Source: a virus (lineage: Duplodnaviria; Caudoviricetes). Taken from it: a DNA stretch of 64,000 bases. Positions 23,415 through 48,532 of this stretch are shown here, piece after piece. The stretch lies in IMG/VR virus record IMGVR_UViG_3300002835_000006; one strand, given 5' to 3'. Under the pieces are notes generated by a model that did no database searches, was not told where the DNA came from, and saw only the letters and a program-made list of their open reading frames with translations. The translations under genes and the position numbers were made by a program. How positions within the stretch are numbered: position 1 is the stretch's first letter; each line of letters starts with the position of its first letter.

Positions 23415-23846
23415 ATGTCAAAAATTAAAATTTCACTAGACCGAGGTGATATGGTATGTGAGTTATATGATAACGAAACCCCTATCACAGTAAAAAATTT
23501 CTTAGATTTAATTTCCAAAAACTTCTACGACGGACTAAGTTTTCACAGGGTAATTCCTGGATTTGTTTGTCAAGGAGGATGTCCTCGTGGAGACGGTACC
23601 GGTGGACCTGGATACACAATTTCATGTGAAGTAAATGCTCAAAAACAATTTCACGACAAGGGAGTCTTATCTATGGCTCATGCAGGTAGAGATACCGGAG
23701 GTTCTCAATTTTTTATCTGTCACAACAGACAAAATACTCAACATCTTGATAGAAACCATACATGTTTTGGTAAAGTTATTGAGGGTTTGGAACTTATTGA
23801 CCAAATTAAACAAGGTGAGAAAATCAATTCAATTACCGTAATCTAA
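23415..23846 (+). CDS. ppiA: cyclophilin-type peptidyl-prolyl cis-trans isomerase
   Basis: FYDGLSFHRVIPGFVCQGG.P.GDGTGGPGY; GVLSMAHAGRDTGGSQFFI; HLD..HTCFGKV. Confidence 0.95.
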   Translation: MSKIKISLDRGDMVCELYDNETPITVKNFLDLISKNFYDGLSFHRVIPGFVCQGGCPRGDGTGGPGYTISCEVNAQKQFHDKGVLSMAHAGRDTGGSQFFICHNRQNTQHLDRNHTCFGKVIEGLELIDQIKQGEKINSITVI

Positions 23847-25798: not shown

Positions 25799-26017
25799 AT
25801 GTTTAAAATGTTATTGAAAATTAAAAGTTTATTTGCGGAAAAACCTTCAAGTAAACTAACATGGACTGTAAAAGATTATGAAAAAGGAAGAAATTGGTCT
25901 AAAACACAACCACATCCCTTCATCAAAAACAAAACTTTATGGGACTTGTGTTATGACAAAGCGGATTCAGCCAACACAATTCATAATTTGAACAAATTTT
26001 TGTTCAACGAAATCTGA
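25799..26017 (+). CDS. hypothetical protein
   Basis: 72 aa ORF. Confidence 0.55.
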   Translation: MFKMLLKIKSLFAEKPSSKLTWTVKDYEKGRNWSKTQPHPFIKNKTLWDLCYDKADSANTIHNLNKFLFNEI

Positions 26018-26639
26018 ATCCAGTCAATTTTGTTATTTCTTCAACGGTAACCTCGTTGTTTTTGAAACCGTCGGGTTTTGAGGTTGAATTTTCGAATAGA
26101 AATGCAGACCAAAGGTTCTCTTTTTTGATAAAAATCACTTTCCAACAATATTTTGGTACTGTAACTTTCCCAATTTTCTTCAATTCACCTAAATTTCCAC
26201 ACCATACCATTATTGAGTCTTTTACTTTAGCGGTTTCTCTTACATAAACCTCCAAAGATTTCCAATCACCAGCATTTAATGAATGATATTGAGCAGAAAT
26301 GTTTGAAAAGTAAAAACATTCATCTTGGATTTGTTGTGTTTGACATAAATTGTCTGCTGCTGGCATCATATGACCTCGGTCTGTCCCACTATTTACAAAA
26401 TCCTTCATATTATCAGTTTCATTTGGTAATAAGGGGTCTGGTTTGAAACTATCTTTTCTTTTTAAAGGTGTTTTGCAGTCAACCATACTCTTTGTCACCC
26501 AAAATTCTACTAAAACAGGGTATTTTTTTGATTTACTGTAAATTGACGTGTAGTTTGTGTGTTTTAACCTTATTGTGTCTTGTGAGAGACATAAATTAGT
26601 TAAAAAAAGGAATACCAATCCAAAATATAGTCTGAACAT
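26004..26639 (-). CDS. secreted DNA/RNA non-specific endonuclease (NucA/EndG beta-beta-alpha-Me family)
   Basis: TDRGHMMPAAD; FYFSNISAQ..SLNAG.W..LE; VPKYCWKV; signal peptide ending CLS/Q. Confidence 0.9.
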   Translation of the reverse strand: MFRLYFGLVFLFLTNLCLSQDTIRLKHTNYTSIYSKSKKYPVLVEFWVTKSMVDCKTPLKRKDSFKPDPLLPNETDNMKDFVNSGTDRGHMMPAADNLCQTQQIQDECFYFSNISAQYHSLNAGDWKSLEVYVRETAKVKDSIMVWCGNLGELKKIGKVTVPKYCWKVIFIKKENLWSAFLFENSTSKPDGFKNNEVTVEEITKLTGFRFR

Positions 26640-26687
26640 AGAAATAAATACGTTCAAAAATTAGTTTTTTGACTTATTTTTAAATTT

Positions 26688-28828: not shown

Positions 28829-29113
28829 TTATACGTCCCACCTTACCATAGTTTTTACACTGTAATCTGAAAAGAATAAAGGGATTGCATCTTGAATTAA
28901 AACATCGGCTAATTCTCTGTCTAAAACTTCTTCTGTAATTATATTCCCCAAAATAATTACAGCCTCCACGACAACCGATTTCTGTGTTGGTGAAAAAATA
29001 ACGTTATGAATTTTGATTGTTGTACCTTGACCATACATTTCTTCCACTGCACTTCCTCGATGACCGTTGATGTATAGTTCTAAAAGACGTATGAATCTTC
29101 TTTTCTCATCCAT
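28829..29113 (-). CDS. hypothetical protein
   Basis: 94 aa ORF. Confidence 0.7.
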   Translation of the reverse strand: MDEKRRFIRLLELYINGHRGSAVEEMYGQGTTIKIHNVIFSPTQKSVVVEAVIILGNIITEEVLDRELADVLIQDAIPLFFSDYSVKTMVRWDV

Positions 29114-29151
29114 AATGAGATATTATAGAATAAAAACAGTAAAAAGTAATC

Positions 29152-29283
29152 TTATCTTCCTTGTCCGCGATATGCTTTAGGTCTTGGAGAATGTTTGTTA
29201 TAAGATTTCTTTGCATTTCCACCTTTTCTTTTTCCAAATGTTATTTTTCTTGATGATACTGAAGATTTTGAACCTTTTGCCAT
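29152..29283 (-). CDS. 43-aa basic peptide ending YRGQGR (not in ORF track)
   Basis: MAKGSKSSVSSRKITFGKRKGGNAKKSYNKHSPRPKAYRGQGR; TATTTAT upstream on the minus strand. Confidence 0.7.
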   Translation of the reverse strand: MAKGSKSSVSSRKITFGKRKGGNAKKSYNKHSPRPKAYRGQGR

Positions 29284-29322
29284 AGTTTGAATTTTAAAAT
29301 AAATACCTATATATTTGATATT

Positions 29323-29613
29323 ATGAATTCTCTTTACGAAGAAAAATTAAAGTTATTGTCCAAATATTCTGGAGACACATCAGACGAACTTTTACTTCAT
29401 CTGAAAAGACATTTTCCTGTAACCCAAGTAAATCATGATTGGATGGGGGAGCCTGTAAAATTCATAAAGGTGGATGATAAAACAAGGATATTAAAAGATA
29501 ATAAAAAATATTTGGTCTCTAAAATTTATGATATTGTCCATGAATTATGGGATTCCTTAGGTGAGAGAAAAATTCGAAGGACAATAAAAAAGTATCTCGA
29601 CGGGATTAGTTAA
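29323..29613 (+). CDS. hypothetical protein
   Basis: TATATTTG upstream; 96 aa. Confidence 0.7.
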   Translation: MNSLYEEKLKLLSKYSGDTSDELLLHLKRHFPVTQVNHDWMGEPVKFIKVDDKTRILKDNKKYLVSKIYDIVHELWDSLGERKIRRTIKKYLDGIS

Positions 29614-29631
29614 ATTGATATATTTATAACT

Positions 29632-29838
29632 ATGATAGTTTACACAATACAAGAATTCTGTAGTTATTTACAAAGCGGACATACAGAAGTTGTTACTTAT
29701 GATTTTGTCGATGACATTTATTTTATTTTATTGGATACAAAACCTACCTCCTTCATAATTTCACCTGCAAGATTAGCAGTTGGTTTTACTGCAGCTGAAC
29801 TTGAAGAATGGAAACAATTTTTTTGGGACTCCTTTTAA
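29632..29838 (+). CDS. hypothetical protein
   Basis: ATATTTAT upstream; 68 aa. Confidence 0.6.
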   Translation: MIVYTIQEFCSYLQSGHTEVVTYDFVDDIYFILLDTKPTSFIISPARLAVGFTAAELEEWKQFFWDSF

Positions 29839-29841
29839 AAA

Positions 29842-29873
29842 TTTGACAGTTATTTTTTTTCTCCTTATCTTTG
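29842..29873 (+). promoter_or_regulatory. sigma70 promoter 1 of ncRNA cluster
   Basis: TTTG 29842-45, 20 nt spacer, TATCTTTG 29866-73. Confidence 0.7.
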
Positions 29874-29941
29874 TAAAACAATTCGGGACTTACAGGCGAT
29901 GAAAGATACTCGGTACTCGAATAAAAAAAGCTCTTACAAAT

Positions 29942-29972
29942 TTTGGCGGTCTAAAAAGATTTCTTATCTTTG
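29942..29972 (+). promoter_or_regulatory. sigma70 promoter 2 (tRNA-like gene)
   Basis: TTTG 29942-45, 19 nt spacer, TATCTTTG 29965-72. Confidence 0.7.
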
Positions 29973-29982
29973 TAAGACATTT

Positions 29983-30071
29983 GGTTGAGGTAGCTCAGTA
30001 ACTCTTTAGGGTTTTGGTAGAGCAAGGACCTGAACAGTCTTGTGCCGGTGGTTCGACTCCACCCCCAACCA
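29983..30071 (+). tRNA. atypical tRNA-Phe(GAA)-like gene with D-loop hairpin insertion
   Basis: TAGCTCAG...TGGTAGAGC D-arm; AGGAC-CTGAACA-GTCTT anticodon arm; GGTGG-TTCGACT-CCACC T-arm; GGTTG/CAACC acceptor; no encoded CCA. Confidence 0.7.
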
Positions 30072-30111
30072 CGAAAAAACTCAGATTTTTATCTGAATTT
30101 TCATCAAAGAA

Positions 30112-30143
30112 TTTGGAAGGCATTAAAATCTTTCTTATCTTTG
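30112..30143 (+). promoter_or_regulatory. sigma70 promoter 3 (ncRNA candidate)
   Basis: TTTG 30112-15, 20 nt spacer, TATCTTTG 30136-43. Confidence 0.7.
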
Positions 30144-30147
30144 TAAC

Positions 30148-30455
30148 ATGGACAGCGGAATGTTTACTTGTGGTGGTTCCCCATACTCACCCCGTCTAAC
30201 TTTCTTCTCCGCTTTATAAATCAGAAATACAGAGACGACTAAAACACGGGAGGTTTAGGTGGAAAGGTCATTCCTGTTTAATCCTTGATAAACTAACAAC
30301 CATGTCTTTTTTCGGATGTTTTGTGACACATAATCAAAACAGGATATGTCCAATCCCACGGGGTTCTTTCGGTCTCACCTCCCTATCCGATTAAAAACTT
30401 AGACCACACATTTCTCGACGGAGATATAAGGGGACACGACGGTGTCCCCTTTTTT
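30148..30455 (+). ncRNA. candidate ~300-nt structured non-coding RNA
   Basis: Bounded by promoter and terminator; no ORF of 60 aa or more inside; higher GC than flanks; several complementary blocks. Confidence 0.5.
30429..30455 (+). terminator. intrinsic terminator
   Basis: AGGGGACAC-GACG-GTGTCCCCT then TTTTT. Confidence 0.85.
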
Positions 30456-30486
30456 GTTATCATTTAAATATTTATTATAGAAAAAT

Positions 30487-31656
30487 ATGGCTACTATAAC
30501 TCCCGTTGCGTACAAACCAGTTGGTTCAATACCTGGAACAACTAAAGTTGGAAATTTAATTGCAGGAACAACTCCACAAGATTATGGTGTTGTTGGTGCT
30601 AACTATGGTGTTACGTTTTGGTCAACTCCAGACCAAGATTTAGGATATGTGATTGCTCATGAGGATACAATTGGTTCACACACAGGTAATACAGCATCGG
30701 GAGATGTGTCAGCGTTTGTTGGTTTTTGGAGAAGCGAATTAAAAACTGAAGAGTCATTTATAAGTTTGGCAGAATCCGTTTCTGATTGGGATGATGACCC
30801 TCAAACTTTTTTAGATGGTACTGAAGCTGTAACTTGGTTGAATAACAATGGTTATTGGACCTCATTTACACCCAAAACACCCTACACCGAATTACAAATA
30901 ATTGCAGAATATTTGAGAGGATTCATGCCTGAGTTTAGAAATCCAAGTTTTTATCCTTATCAACTTGATGGGGATGGTTATTATATAAATGATGGAGGTG
31001 GTGACATGTACGACAATGGAAATATTTCTTCTCCTTGGGTTATTTCTAATACTGAATATATAGGCGCTGATGTATATAGCTCAAGTTCGTATCCTTTCGC
31101 CGTAAACTATACTAATTCTGCAACTACAGTAAATTTAGATACAAGCTTCGGATATATAAGTTTAGGTTATCAACAATATCCTGGTGGAGTTCAACCTCTA
31201 ACATATCTACCACTTACGGTTTTGGGTTCAAGAGATAATGATACATTTGGACCTGGACTTCCTGTTGGATTTCAGACAGGTGGTAACTCTGGTGCAGACG
31301 GAGGAGGGACCTTAGCTAGTGGTACAATTTATAGCGGAGCAACTGTGAGTGGATTTACCGTATACGCATTTTTTAGAGAAACTTATAATGCTAGCGACCC
31401 ATCTCACTGTGATTTGTATATTTTGTTGGGACACCCAAGTTGGAACTCAACATTCGGAACAGTTACATCATTTGCTCAACCAACAAACGTTGGTGGATGC
31501 GGAGGTTATTTATATACAACAGGTGCAGGAACAGAAAATATATTGGCAATCAAAACATTATTGAGTAAAAACGGTGGTACGCTTGTTACACAAGCTGAAT
31601 GTCAAACTGTGGTTGATAATTTCGTTATTAGAGTAAAACAATCACAGGGATTTTAA
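30487..31656 (+). CDS. virion adhesin/tail-associated protein candidate
   Basis: G/T/S/Y-rich beta protein; N-terminal FWSTPD...GYVI resembles FWNGIVP..GYTI of ORF 11656; ATATTTAT upstream. Confidence 0.6.
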   Translation: MATITPVAYKPVGSIPGTTKVGNLIAGTTPQDYGVVGANYGVTFWSTPDQDLGYVIAHEDTIGSHTGNTASGDVSAFVGFWRSELKTEESFISLAESVSDWDDDPQTFLDGTEAVTWLNNNGYWTSFTPKTPYTELQIIAEYLRGFMPEFRNPSFYPYQLDGDGYYINDGGGDMYDNGNISSPWVISNTEYIGADVYSSSSYPFAVNYTNSATTVNLDTSFGYISLGYQQYPGGVQPLTYLPLTVLGSRDNDTFGPGLPVGFQTGGNSGADGGGTLASGTIYSGATVSGFTVYAFFRETYNASDPSHCDLYILLGHPSWNSTFGTVTSFAQPTNVGGCGGYLYTTGAGTENILAIKTLLSKNGGTLVTQAECQTVVDNFVIRVKQSQGF

Positions 31657-36871: not shown

Positions 36872-37025
36872 AAAAATTATTTTTACAAAGATAATAAAAA
36901 AAATAAGACCCACAAAAAAATTTGCGGGTCTTTTGGAAAGGATATATGAGAACACCTTACGGTGATAACACTCATAAATATATCAAAAATTGAAAAAAAT
37001 ACAAGTTTTGATAGCATTGAGACCA

Positions 37026-48445: not shown

Positions 48446-48532
48446 CGGAGGCTCAGGGATTCGAACCCCAGTTACCCTCACGAGTAATTCAGTTTTCAAG
48501 ACTGACGCATTCGACCGCTCTGCCAAACCTCC
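48446..48532 (-). tRNA. trnS: tRNA-Ser(TGA)
   Basis: GGAGGTT acceptor; TGGCAGAGCGGTCGAATGCG; TCAGT-CTTGAAA-ACTGA; long variable arm; GGTTCGAATCC; CCA not encoded. Confidence 0.95.

What the first reader, a model, noticed from the sequence alone, without database searches (positions are those of the whole stretch)
30148..30455. Candidate novel ~300-nt structured ncRNA with a possible pseudoknot
Seen: a self-contained unit between a consensus promoter (30112-43) and a strong terminator (30429-55). Complementary blocks are GGGAGGT 30248-54 / ACCTCCC 30378-84, TCCTGTTT 30272-79 / AAACAGGA 30337-44, TCGGAT 30312-17 / ATCCGA 30386-91 (crossing the first two, hence pseudoknot-like), AGCGGA / TCCGCT and CGTCT / AGACG. 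Two closing hairpins both have GACG loops. Known: large phage ncRNAs such as GOLLD and ROOL often lie near tRNA genes. I cannot assign a family.
Basis: partly seen in the sequence, partly recalled or inferred. Interest (0 to 1): 0.62.

Follow-up and report, generated by a model that had tools for sequence, protein, structure and literature searches.

The report
Knotted phage RNA beside odd tRNA
A giant lake-water phage of Bacteroidota-type bacteria carries a gene for a roughly 305-base non-coding RNA whose conserved, multiply knotted fold matches no catalogued RNA family and which always follows a tRNA-Phe look-alike; its function is untested.

Summary
The unit is real. A Bacteroidota-type promoter (TTTG-N20-TATCTTTG, 30112-30143) and a strong terminator (30428-30455) bracket a ~305-nt RNA.

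Rfam 15 has no match, and no ORF is conserved. I found 17-18 distinct homologues, all on IMG/VR contigs of one syntenic lineage of large phages. None turned up in GenBank phages or in 401 sampled Bacteroidota genomes.

Comparative analysis supports a compact fold with at least four crossing pairings:
- the 5' end pairs into the loop of hairpin P9 (P1);
- CGUCU/AGACG (P4) crosses the invariant AGCGGA/UCCGCU (P2);
- P7 and P8 form an H-type pseudoknot;
- UCGGAU/AUCCGA (P13) is a kissing contact between the P7 and P10 loops.

The family does not support the other two (GGGAGGT/ACCTCCC and TCCTGTTT/AAACAGGA). The two 3' hairpins with C-GACG-G loops are conserved and specific to this RNA.

In every locus with upstream sequence the RNA follows a small hairpin RNA and a tRNA-Phe(GAA) look-alike. 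One clade fuses all three under a single promoter.

Function is unknown. My best guess is a stable trans-acting RNA scaffold tied to tRNA or translation biology. A ROOL/GOLLD-like self-assembling RNA is the main rival.

First readers of this scan noted the same operon on another genome.

The parts
30112..30143 (+). Promoter of the RNA: -33 TTTG (30112-15) and -7 TATCTTTG (30136-43), 20-nt spacer
   Evidence: Read. The 12-mer TTATCTTTGTAA occurs exactly four times in the window; with one mismatch allowed there are 8 matches against 1.9 expected. Clades A and C keep it in front of the RNA. The Bacteroidota consensus TTTG / TAnnTTTG is from my own knowledge.
30148..30455 (+). The ~305-nt non-coding RNA ('RNA3'), a new family
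   Evidence: 17-18 distinct homologues. Model R1 scores it 290.5 bits. No Rfam match. No conserved ORF.
30149..30153 (+). P1 5' strand UGGAC. It pairs with GUCCA 30348-52, which lies inside the P9 loop (pseudoknot).
   Evidence: Found by RNAalifold. Two of its five pairs change on both sides: C-G to U-A in 5 sequences and U-A to A-U in 2. 97.6% of cells pair.
30154..30159 (+). P2 5' strand AGCGGA; partner UCCGCU 30208-13
   Evidence: Invariant in 17 of 17. Pairing is possible but not tested by variation.
30172..30191 (+). P3 hairpin GGUG/CACC with a conserved 12-nt loop GUUCCCCAUACU
   Evidence: The stem is invariant. It lies in the 5' domain, which is 80% identical between clades, against 42% for the middle of the RNA.
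30193..30197 (+). P4 5' strand CGUCU; partner AGACG 30233-37. It crosses P2 (pseudoknot).
   Evidence: 12 different helix versions, for example GACCU/AGGUC, AACCUU/AAGGUU, GACA/UGUC and ACCUUUAU/AUAAAGGU. Total score 167, above all 200 shuffles (maximum 163). Not seen in clade B.
30261..30274 (+). P5 hairpin GGAA/UUCC (weak)
   Evidence: Only about 2 sd above shuffles. Tentative.
30276..30293 (+). P6 hairpin GUUUA/UAAAC
   Evidence: Covaries: GCUU/AAGC, UAUCUUU/AAAGAUA, AAUCUU/AAGAUU, GUCUU/AAGAC. Score 207 against 152 +/- 9.
30303..30328 (+). P7 hairpin UGUC (30303-06) / GACA (30325-28). Its loop carries the 5' strands of P13 and P8.
   Evidence: Covaries: GCCC/GGGC, GCCU/AGGC, GACU/AGUC, CGUC/GACG, AAGUCU/AGACUU. 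Score 194 against 149.5 +/- 9.4.
30318..30340 (+). P8: GUUUUG 30318-23 with CAAAAC 30335-40. With P7 it forms an H-type pseudoknot.
   Evidence: Covaries: GUUUC/GAAAC, GUUUUC/GAAAAC, GUUUUUU/AAAAAAC. Score 257 against 197 +/- 8.
30342..30356 (+). P9 hairpin GGAU/AUCC. Its 7-nt loop holds the P1 3' strand GUCCA (30348-52).
   Evidence: All 4 pairs change on both sides; 94% of cells pair. Versions include GGAG/CUCC, GAAG/CUUC, AAGGA/UCCUU and GAAGUA/UACUUC.
30371..30405 (+). P10: GGUCU 30371-75 with AGACC 30401-05. Its loop carries the P13 3' strand.
   Evidence: Score 178 against 134.5 +/- 9.4. Clade A keeps GGUC/GACC. By eye, clades B and C have other complementary pairs at the same place.
30312..30317 (+). 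P13 5' strand UCGGAU; partner AUCCGA 30385-90. This is a kissing contact between the P7 loop and the P10 loop.
Evidence: 14 helix versions, for example UUGAAU/GUUCAA, UUGGAU/GUCCAA, AGGGGU/ACCCCU, UUGGAU/AUCCAA and UGGUA/UACCA. Score 221 against 141.9 +/- 9.3, shuffle maximum 165.
30413..30424 (+). P11 hairpin UCUC-GACG-GAGA
   Evidence: The stem covaries and 97.6% of cells pair. The loop GACG closed by C-G is invariant in 17 of 17.
30428..30455 (+). P12 terminator hairpin with the same GACG loop, followed by a T-run
   Evidence: 7 of 9 pairs change on both sides. GACG loops closed by C-G occur nowhere else among the window's terminator-like hairpins.
29881..29922 (+). RNA1: a small hairpin RNA, first member of the three-RNA module
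   Evidence: The 7-bp stem covaries: AUUCGGG/CUCGAAU, GUUCGGA/UUCGAAC, GUUUGAA/UUCAAAC, AUUUGAG/CUCAAAU. The loop of about 28 nt is nearly invariant.
29983..30071 (+). tRNA-Phe(GAA) look-alike with a hairpin inserted in the D-loop, second member of the module
   Evidence: Rfam tRNA 22.7 bits, below the gathering score of 29. ARAGORN misses it but calls the insert-free clade C copies tRNA-Phe. Present upstream of RNA3 in every locus with enough sequence.

Best explanation
This is a real phage gene for a stable, roughly 305-nt non-coding RNA of a family not yet catalogued.

Transcription: it runs from a host-type (Bacteroidota sigma-A) promoter and ends at its own intrinsic terminator.

Fold: the RNA forms a compact, multiply knotted core.
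- The 5' end is tucked into the loop of hairpin P9 (P1).
- The 5' domain forms a pseudoknot (P2/P3 with P4).
- The centre holds an H-type pseudoknot (P7/P8). Its loop also kisses the loop of P10 (P13).
- Two G+C-rich hairpins with identical C-GACG-G loops close the 3' end.

Inferred: this scaffold holds the nearly invariant unpaired bases of the 5' domain and the twin GACG loops in a fixed geometry for a conserved partner. Burying both ends protects the RNA from exonucleases.

Inferred from linkage only: the RNA works in trans with the neighbouring tRNA-Phe look-alike and the small hairpin RNA. All three form one module at a tRNA-island position. The most likely target is the host's tRNA or translation apparatus, or a defence that attacks it.

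My odds: real, independently expressed structured RNA of a new family, about 0.9. Functional coupling to the tRNA look-alike or to translation, about 0.35.
For: Shown:
- Promoter and terminator bracket the unit.
- 17-18 distinct homologues score 225-300 bits with one model.
- Covariation is well above both controls.
- P1, P4, P6, P7, P8, P9, P10 and P13 each exceed all 200 shuffles in an alignment-free helix search, with 5-14 sequence versions per helix.
- A strand pairs better with its own partner than with partners from other members.
- G-U pairs occur in helices such as UUGAAU/GUUCAA. They would be A-C mismatches on the other strand, so the RNA is read from the + strand.
- No ORF is conserved.
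- The gene downstream differs between loci, so this is not a leader.
- The 5' domain is 80% identical between clades against 42% for the middle.
- The GACG loops are invariant and specific to this RNA.

Linkage:
- RNA1, the tRNA look-alike and RNA3 keep the same order in all loci.
- In clade B they share one promoter, and the tRNA's CCA is followed after two bases by the RNA's 5' end.
- A related phage has a 14-tRNA island at the same place.
Against: - There is no expression data.
- All homologues come from one syntenic phage lineage. The sequences are therefore not independent, and co-occurrence with the tRNA look-alike could be plain synteny.
- P2 and P3 never vary.
- P4 is not seen in clade B.
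- Folding energy is not better than shuffles.
- I found no complementarity that covaries between this RNA and the tRNA look-alike or RNA1.
- No RNA-handling protein gene lies nearby.
- The function rests on analogy and linkage only.
Confidence: 0.6

Rival explanations
1. It is a self-assembling RNA of the ROOL/GOLLD kind. The RNA forms homo-oligomers, and one or more of the covarying 'pseudoknots' are really contacts between copies. The candidates are P13, the loop-loop kissing contact, and P1, the 5' end pairing into the P9 loop.
For: - ROOL and GOLLD are phage RNAs near tRNA islands. At least one of their kissing loops, first read from covariation as a contact within one molecule, turned out to join different copies (bioRxiv 10.1101/2024.12.08.627333, read).
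- This RNA sits at a tRNA-island position.
- It has two long-range loop contacts with strong covariation.
- No protein partner gene is evident nearby.
Against: - At 305 nt it is far shorter than ROOL (about 580 nt, from my own knowledge) and GOLLD (over 800 nt).
- It matches neither model.
- All its contacts can form within one molecule.
- None of the loops is self-complementary.
Confidence: 0.2
2. It is a ribozyme. It might cut itself free from the tRNA look-alike in the fused clade B transcripts, or act on tRNA.
For: - The many pseudoknots and invariant unpaired bases are typical of catalytic RNAs.
- In clade B the 5' end lies two bases after the tRNA's CCA.
Against: - No known ribozyme model matches.
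- Clades A and C give the RNA its own promoter, so self-release is not needed there.
- Host RNases that trim tRNA 3' ends could make the cut.
Confidence: 0.08
3. It is a cis-acting leader (riboswitch, T-box-like element or attenuator) of the gene downstream at 30487.
For: - It lies 31 nt upstream of an ORF and ends in a terminator.
- It contains UUC UUC next to a tRNA-Phe look-alike.
Against: - The downstream gene differs between loci while the RNA is kept.
- No alternative anti-terminator pairing is conserved.
- No riboswitch or T-box model matches.
Confidence: 0.03
4. It encodes a small protein, for example the 23-codon ORF at 30148-30219, or it is a DNA-level site such as an attachment site or origin.
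For: The window has an ATG ORF, MDSGMF..., whose first six codons are conserved.
Against: - After about six codons the reading frame differs between members.
- Four members lack the ATG, and clade B stops after 15 codons.
- Helices keep pairing through G-U pairs, which fits RNA and not DNA or protein.
Confidence: 0.03

Closest known systems
ROOL (Rfam RF03087) and GOLLD (RF01998), large ornate phage and prophage RNAs
   Same: Encoded by phages next to tRNA genes or islands. Many helices and pseudoknots, with long-range loop contacts. No known function or protein partner. GOLLD sometimes has a tRNA between its two domains, much as the tRNA look-alike here sits between RNA1 and RNA3.
   Different: No match to either covariance model even at E <= 10. 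About 305 nt against about 580 nt (ROOL, my own knowledge) and over 800 nt (GOLLD). Different helices. Found so far in one lineage of Bacteroidota-type phages only. Multimer formation is untested.
Stable RNAs C and D ('species 1 and 2') of the phage T4 tRNA operon (from my own knowledge)
   Same: Small stable RNAs of unknown function, encoded and co-transcribed with phage tRNAs and released by processing. Clade B does the same with one promoter for RNA1, tRNA and RNA3.
   Different: The T4 RNAs are about 120-140 nt and I know of no multi-pseudoknot core in them. No model was at hand to compare, and no sequence match was found in GenBank phages.
tmRNA
   Same: An RNA of about 300-400 nt with several H-type pseudoknots, tied to tRNA biology. 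The motif UCGACGG resembles the conserved tmRNA 5' segment UUCGACGGG (from my own knowledge).
   Different: The 5' and 3' ends do not form a tRNA-like domain, and the 3' end is a terminator with no CCA. There is no conserved tag ORF. ARAGORN and the Rfam tmRNA models are silent.
H-type pseudoknots with U-rich loop 1 and an A-U-rich stem 2 (telomerase RNA, SAM-II and preQ1-II riboswitches; from my own knowledge)
   Same: P7/P8 has a U-run in loop 1 next to a GUUUUG/CAAAAC stem 2 and an A-rich loop 3. That is the layout that forms U-A-U triples in those RNAs.
   Different: This is only a local motif. Part of loop 1 here is used for the P13 kissing contact. Triples were not tested.

Membership tests
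ROOL (RF03087) | Match to the family's covariance model | tested here: not met
   cmscan of 29000-31000 at E <= 10 and of the whole window at gathering scores: no ROOL hit.
ROOL (RF03087) | Phage or prophage location near tRNA genes | tested here: met
   Directly downstream of a tRNA-Phe look-alike in all loci. A related phage has a 14-tRNA island there.
GOLLD (RF01998) | Match to the covariance model, in particular the conserved 3' domain | tested here: not met
   No hit at E <= 10. The length of 305 nt is far below the more than 800 nt quoted for GOLLD.
ROOL/GOLLD kind | Forms RNA-only multimeric cages | not testable with these tools
   Needs a native gel or cryo-EM.
tmRNA (RF00023 and relatives) | tRNA-like domain made by the paired 5' and 3' ends, with a CCA end | tested here: not met
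   ARAGORN finds no tmRNA. No Rfam hit. The 5' end pairs with an internal hairpin loop and the 3' end is a terminator.
tmRNA (RF00023 and relatives) | Conserved tag-peptide reading frame | tested here: not met
   No frame or stop codon is kept across the 17 members.
T-box / riboswitch leaders | Fixed position upstream of the regulated gene, and a match to a model | tested here: not met
   The downstream gene varies between loci. No Rfam hit.
RNase P RNA, group I intron, known self-cleaving ribozymes | Match to the Rfam covariance models | tested here: not met
   None listed at E <= 10 in 29000-31000.
T4 tRNA-operon stable RNAs C and D | Sequence or structure homology to the T4 rnaC/rnaD RNAs | tested here: inconclusive
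   blastn of 29840-30480 against 50,697 GenBank phage records, a collection I assume includes T4 and its relatives, gave no match. No structural model was available for a finer test.

The most novel reading that the evidence does not exclude
The three RNAs (hairpin RNA1, the tRNA-Phe look-alike with its D-loop hairpin, and this knotted 305-nt RNA) are parts of one phage-made RNA machine of a kind not yet described. For example, the knotted RNA could dock or present the tRNA look-alike to the host ribosome or to a tRNA-cutting defence. Alternatively it could be a new ribozyme class acting on tRNA.
Probability: 0.15. Interest if true: 0.85.

Novelty: new variant of a known kind. Interest (0 to 1): 0.66.

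Why it matters
Large RNAs with several pseudoknots and invariant unpaired bases are rare. In the past most have turned out to be ribozymes, riboswitches or the cores of RNA-protein machines. The few still unexplained ones (OLE, ROOL, GOLLD, raiA) are an open problem in RNA biology.

This finding adds a compact, easily synthesised member of about 305 nt. It comes with a clear comparative structure model and a fixed partnership with an unusual tRNA look-alike. That makes the question of what phage RNAs in tRNA islands do directly testable, by probing, cryo-EM, pull-downs or deletion in a cultured relative.

The narrow distribution, one phage lineage so far, limits its general reach.

Tried and rejected
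The one weak hit, L317, is coding sequence.
2. blastn against GenBank phages found nothing. The DNA search of 3 + 401 Bacteroidota genomes found nothing. That is a sample only.
3. cmsearch of the whole 64-kb window with R1 missed the element, but found it at 290.5 bits when given 29500-31000. I treat this as a filter artefact.
4. A second model, R2, was meant to align P13. It lost 5 of the 48 specified pairs to insertion columns, presumably P13 pairs in the gappy P10-loop region, and I did not use it. P13 therefore rests on my alignment-free script, not on the count of structure pairs.
6. My own first idea, that GGAUG in the P7 loop pairs with the P9 loop, was dropped in favour of P1 and P13, which show changes on both sides.
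7. A G-tract/C-tract contact (GGGU just before P10 with GCCC in the P10 loop) shows one compensatory change (AGGU/GCCU in L046). Overall it is not above shuffles, so I leave it as tentative.
8. I looked by eye for covarying complementarity between this RNA and RNA1 or the tRNA look-alike and found none.
9. Neighbouring proteins give no functional clue: holin-like, DUF2452, non-specific endonuclease, cyclophilin, phosphoesterase, methyltransferase.
10. The catalogue of about 10,000 candidate viral structured RNAs (PMC10690425) holds only motifs of 29-151 nt. I could not check whether pieces of this RNA are among them.

Full report
**What is in the window.** Between the ORF ending at 29838 and the ORF starting at 30487 lies a 650-nt stretch without credible genes. 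It carries three copies of a Bacteroidota-type promoter, a -33 TTTG and a -7 TAnnTTTG 19-20 nt apart. The extended -7 box TTATCTTTGTAA sits at 29865, 29964 and 30135. A fourth exact copy at 36883 on the other strand precedes a protein gene, so this is a general promoter of the phage or its host.
- The first promoter precedes a small hairpin RNA, RNA1, at 29881-29922.
- The second precedes a tRNA-Phe(GAA) look-alike at 29983-30071. It has a hairpin inserted in the D-loop and its own terminator.
- The third precedes the finding, which ends in a 10-bp G+C-rich hairpin and a T-run.

**The observation.** Folded alone, the RNA is no more stable than shuffles (z = -0.65), so the case rests on comparison with relatives.

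**Known families.** cmscan against Rfam 15 gave nothing at gathering scores in the whole window except the tRNA-Ser at 48446. At E <= 10 in 29000-31000 it gave only terminator-like noise and the sub-threshold tRNA hit. ARAGORN finds no tmRNA.

**Relatives.** The downstream protein and two conserved DNA words led to IMG/VR contigs. These contain 17-18 distinct copies of the RNA, on contigs of up to 326 kb. The flanking genes are syntenic, so this is one phage lineage. The copies fall into three clades.
- Clade A includes the window. Here the tRNA look-alike and RNA3 each have their own promoter.
- Clade B puts RNA1, the tRNA look-alike and the RNA under one promoter. The tRNA's encoded CCA is followed after two bases by the RNA's 5' end.
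- Clade C has a tRNA without the D-loop insert, which ARAGORN calls tRNA-Phe.

A related phage without the RNA has 14 tRNA genes at the same place. I found nothing in 50,697 GenBank phage records or in 401 sampled Bacteroidota genomes. My metagenome and genome scans were too loose and say nothing.

**Not coding, not a leader.** The 5' ORF keeps only its first six codons. After that the frames diverge, four members lack the ATG, and clade B stops early. The gene downstream of the terminator differs between loci.

**Structure.** RNAalifold found the two 3' hairpins, P2, P3 and a long-range pairing of the 5' end with a downstream GUCCA. On the MAFFT alignment A2 my 13-helix model pairs 82% of cells. 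Shuffles give 72.2 +/- 0.8% (0 of 500 reach the observed value), and slid partners give 43-51%. The covariation score is 0.314 against 0.146.

MAFFT and the covariance-model alignment misplace several helices between clades. I therefore also searched each sequence, without relying on columns, for the best helix between the two expected regions, and compared the result with 200 shuffles. P1, P4, P6, P7, P8, P9, P10 and P13 all exceed every shuffle, with 5-14 sequence versions each. P5 is weak. A strand also pairs better with its own partner than with partners from other members.

The result is a knotted core.
- P1: 5' UGGAC with GUCCA inside the 7-nt loop of hairpin P9. C-G changes to U-A in clade B, and U-A changes to A-U in two clade C members.
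- P4 crosses P2.
- P8 (GUUUUG/CAAAAC) crosses P7 as a classic H-type pseudoknot, with a U-rich first loop and an A-rich third loop.
- P13 joins the P7 loop to the P10 loop.

G-U pairs in these helices show that the + strand is the one read as RNA.

TCGGAT/ATCCGA is P13 and CGTCT/AGACG is P4, and both are well supported. AGCGGA/TCCGCT (P2) is invariant. GGGAGGT/ACCTCCC holds only in the window and its 93% twin. TCCTGTTT/AAACAGGA is a coincidence that overlaps P5/P6 and P8/P9.

**Conserved unpaired parts.** The 5' domain is 80% identical between clades and the middle only 42%. The middle keeps its shape by compensatory change, while the 5' domain keeps its letters. Both 3' hairpins carry the loop GACG closed by C-G. 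The first loop is invariant and the second is GACG in 16 of 17. No other terminator-like hairpin in the window has this loop. These parts look like recognition surfaces.

**Function.** This part is inference. The RNA has its own promoter and terminator, buried ends and a rigid core, all marks of a stable trans-acting RNA. It is always the third member of a module with RNA1 and the tRNA-Phe look-alike, at a place where a relative keeps a tRNA island.

The nearest analogues are ROOL and GOLLD, phage RNAs near tRNA islands that form RNA-only cages. In ROOL a kissing loop first read as a contact within one molecule turned out to join different copies. So P13 or P1 might also be contacts between copies.

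I favour a scaffold or decoy acting with the look-alike on tRNA or translation biology (about 0.35). A self-assembling RNA comes next (about 0.2). A ribozyme is possible (under 0.1). Nearby proteins give no clue.

**Caveats.**
- All copies come from one lineage, and the shuffle control ignores relatedness.
- P2 and P3 are untested by variation.
- P4 is not seen in clade B.
- There is no expression data.

**Earlier notes of this scan.** One follow-up described the tRNA look-alike in this window (e1-5405760). Two first-reader notes on another genome describe the same operon, including a TTGGAT/ATCCAA closing pair and the AGCGGA/TCCGCT stem (e1-5902534, e1-5902549). They agree with what I found in clade B.

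Noticed in passing
window 29881-29922 (+): RNA1 is a small hairpin RNA behind its own promoter (29842-29873). Its 7-bp stem covaries between phages, and its loop of about 28 nt (ACUUACAGGCGAUGAAAGAUACUCGGUA) is nearly invariant. An inner 3-bp stem CGA/UCG changes to UGA/UCA in clade C. One member (L040) has a 10-nt deletion in the loop.
   Followed up: partly
window 29983-30071 (+): tRNA-Phe(GAA) look-alike. A hairpin is inserted between D-loop positions 15 and 18, and its stem covaries (AACUC/GGGUU, GAGUUC/GAAUUC, GUGAAUC/GUUCAC). There is a mismatch at acceptor pair 6:67, and position 37 is C, A or U depending on the member. Clade C copies lack the insert and ARAGORN calls them tRNA-Phe. Another follow-up of this scan has already described it (e1-5405760).
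   Followed up: partly
window 30081-30103 (+): The tRNA look-alike has its own small terminator, UCAGAU-UUUU-AUCUGA followed by a U-run. In clade A the tRNA and the 305-nt RNA are therefore separate transcription units. Clade B lacks this terminator and fuses them.
   Followed up: no
L047 about 405-480 and the matching stretch of L066: In two clade C loci an extra conserved stretch of about 70 nt lies between the tRNA and the RNA's promoter. It contains GUGUCGUCUGUAU...ACAGGAGGUCCCAC and may be a fourth small RNA.
   Followed up: no
L040, L042, L043, L045, L046: about 100 nt upstream of the clade B promoter: There is another conserved hairpin-rich element. It starts with GAGAACGG...CGUUCUC and ends in a GCCCC-loop-GGGG terminator with a T-run, just before the three-RNA operon.
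   Followed up: no
L003 1919-5041: A related phage, whose downstream protein is 67% identical, has 14 tRNA genes on the opposite strand around the homologous gene and lacks the 305-nt RNA. One of the 14 is an odd 91-nt call with a two-base anticodon.
   Followed up: no
window 26004-26657 (-) and 23415-23846 (+): The phage encodes a DNA/RNA non-specific endonuclease (PF01223, E 2e-37) and a cyclophilin-type prolyl isomerase (PF00160, E 1e-42). The endonuclease is syntenic with the RNA module in 13 loci.
   Followed up: no
window, whole: cmsearch with the family model missed the element when given the whole 64-kb window, but found it at 290.5 bits in a 1.5-kb slice. An empty answer from a long source should be rechecked on a slice.
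   Followed up: yes
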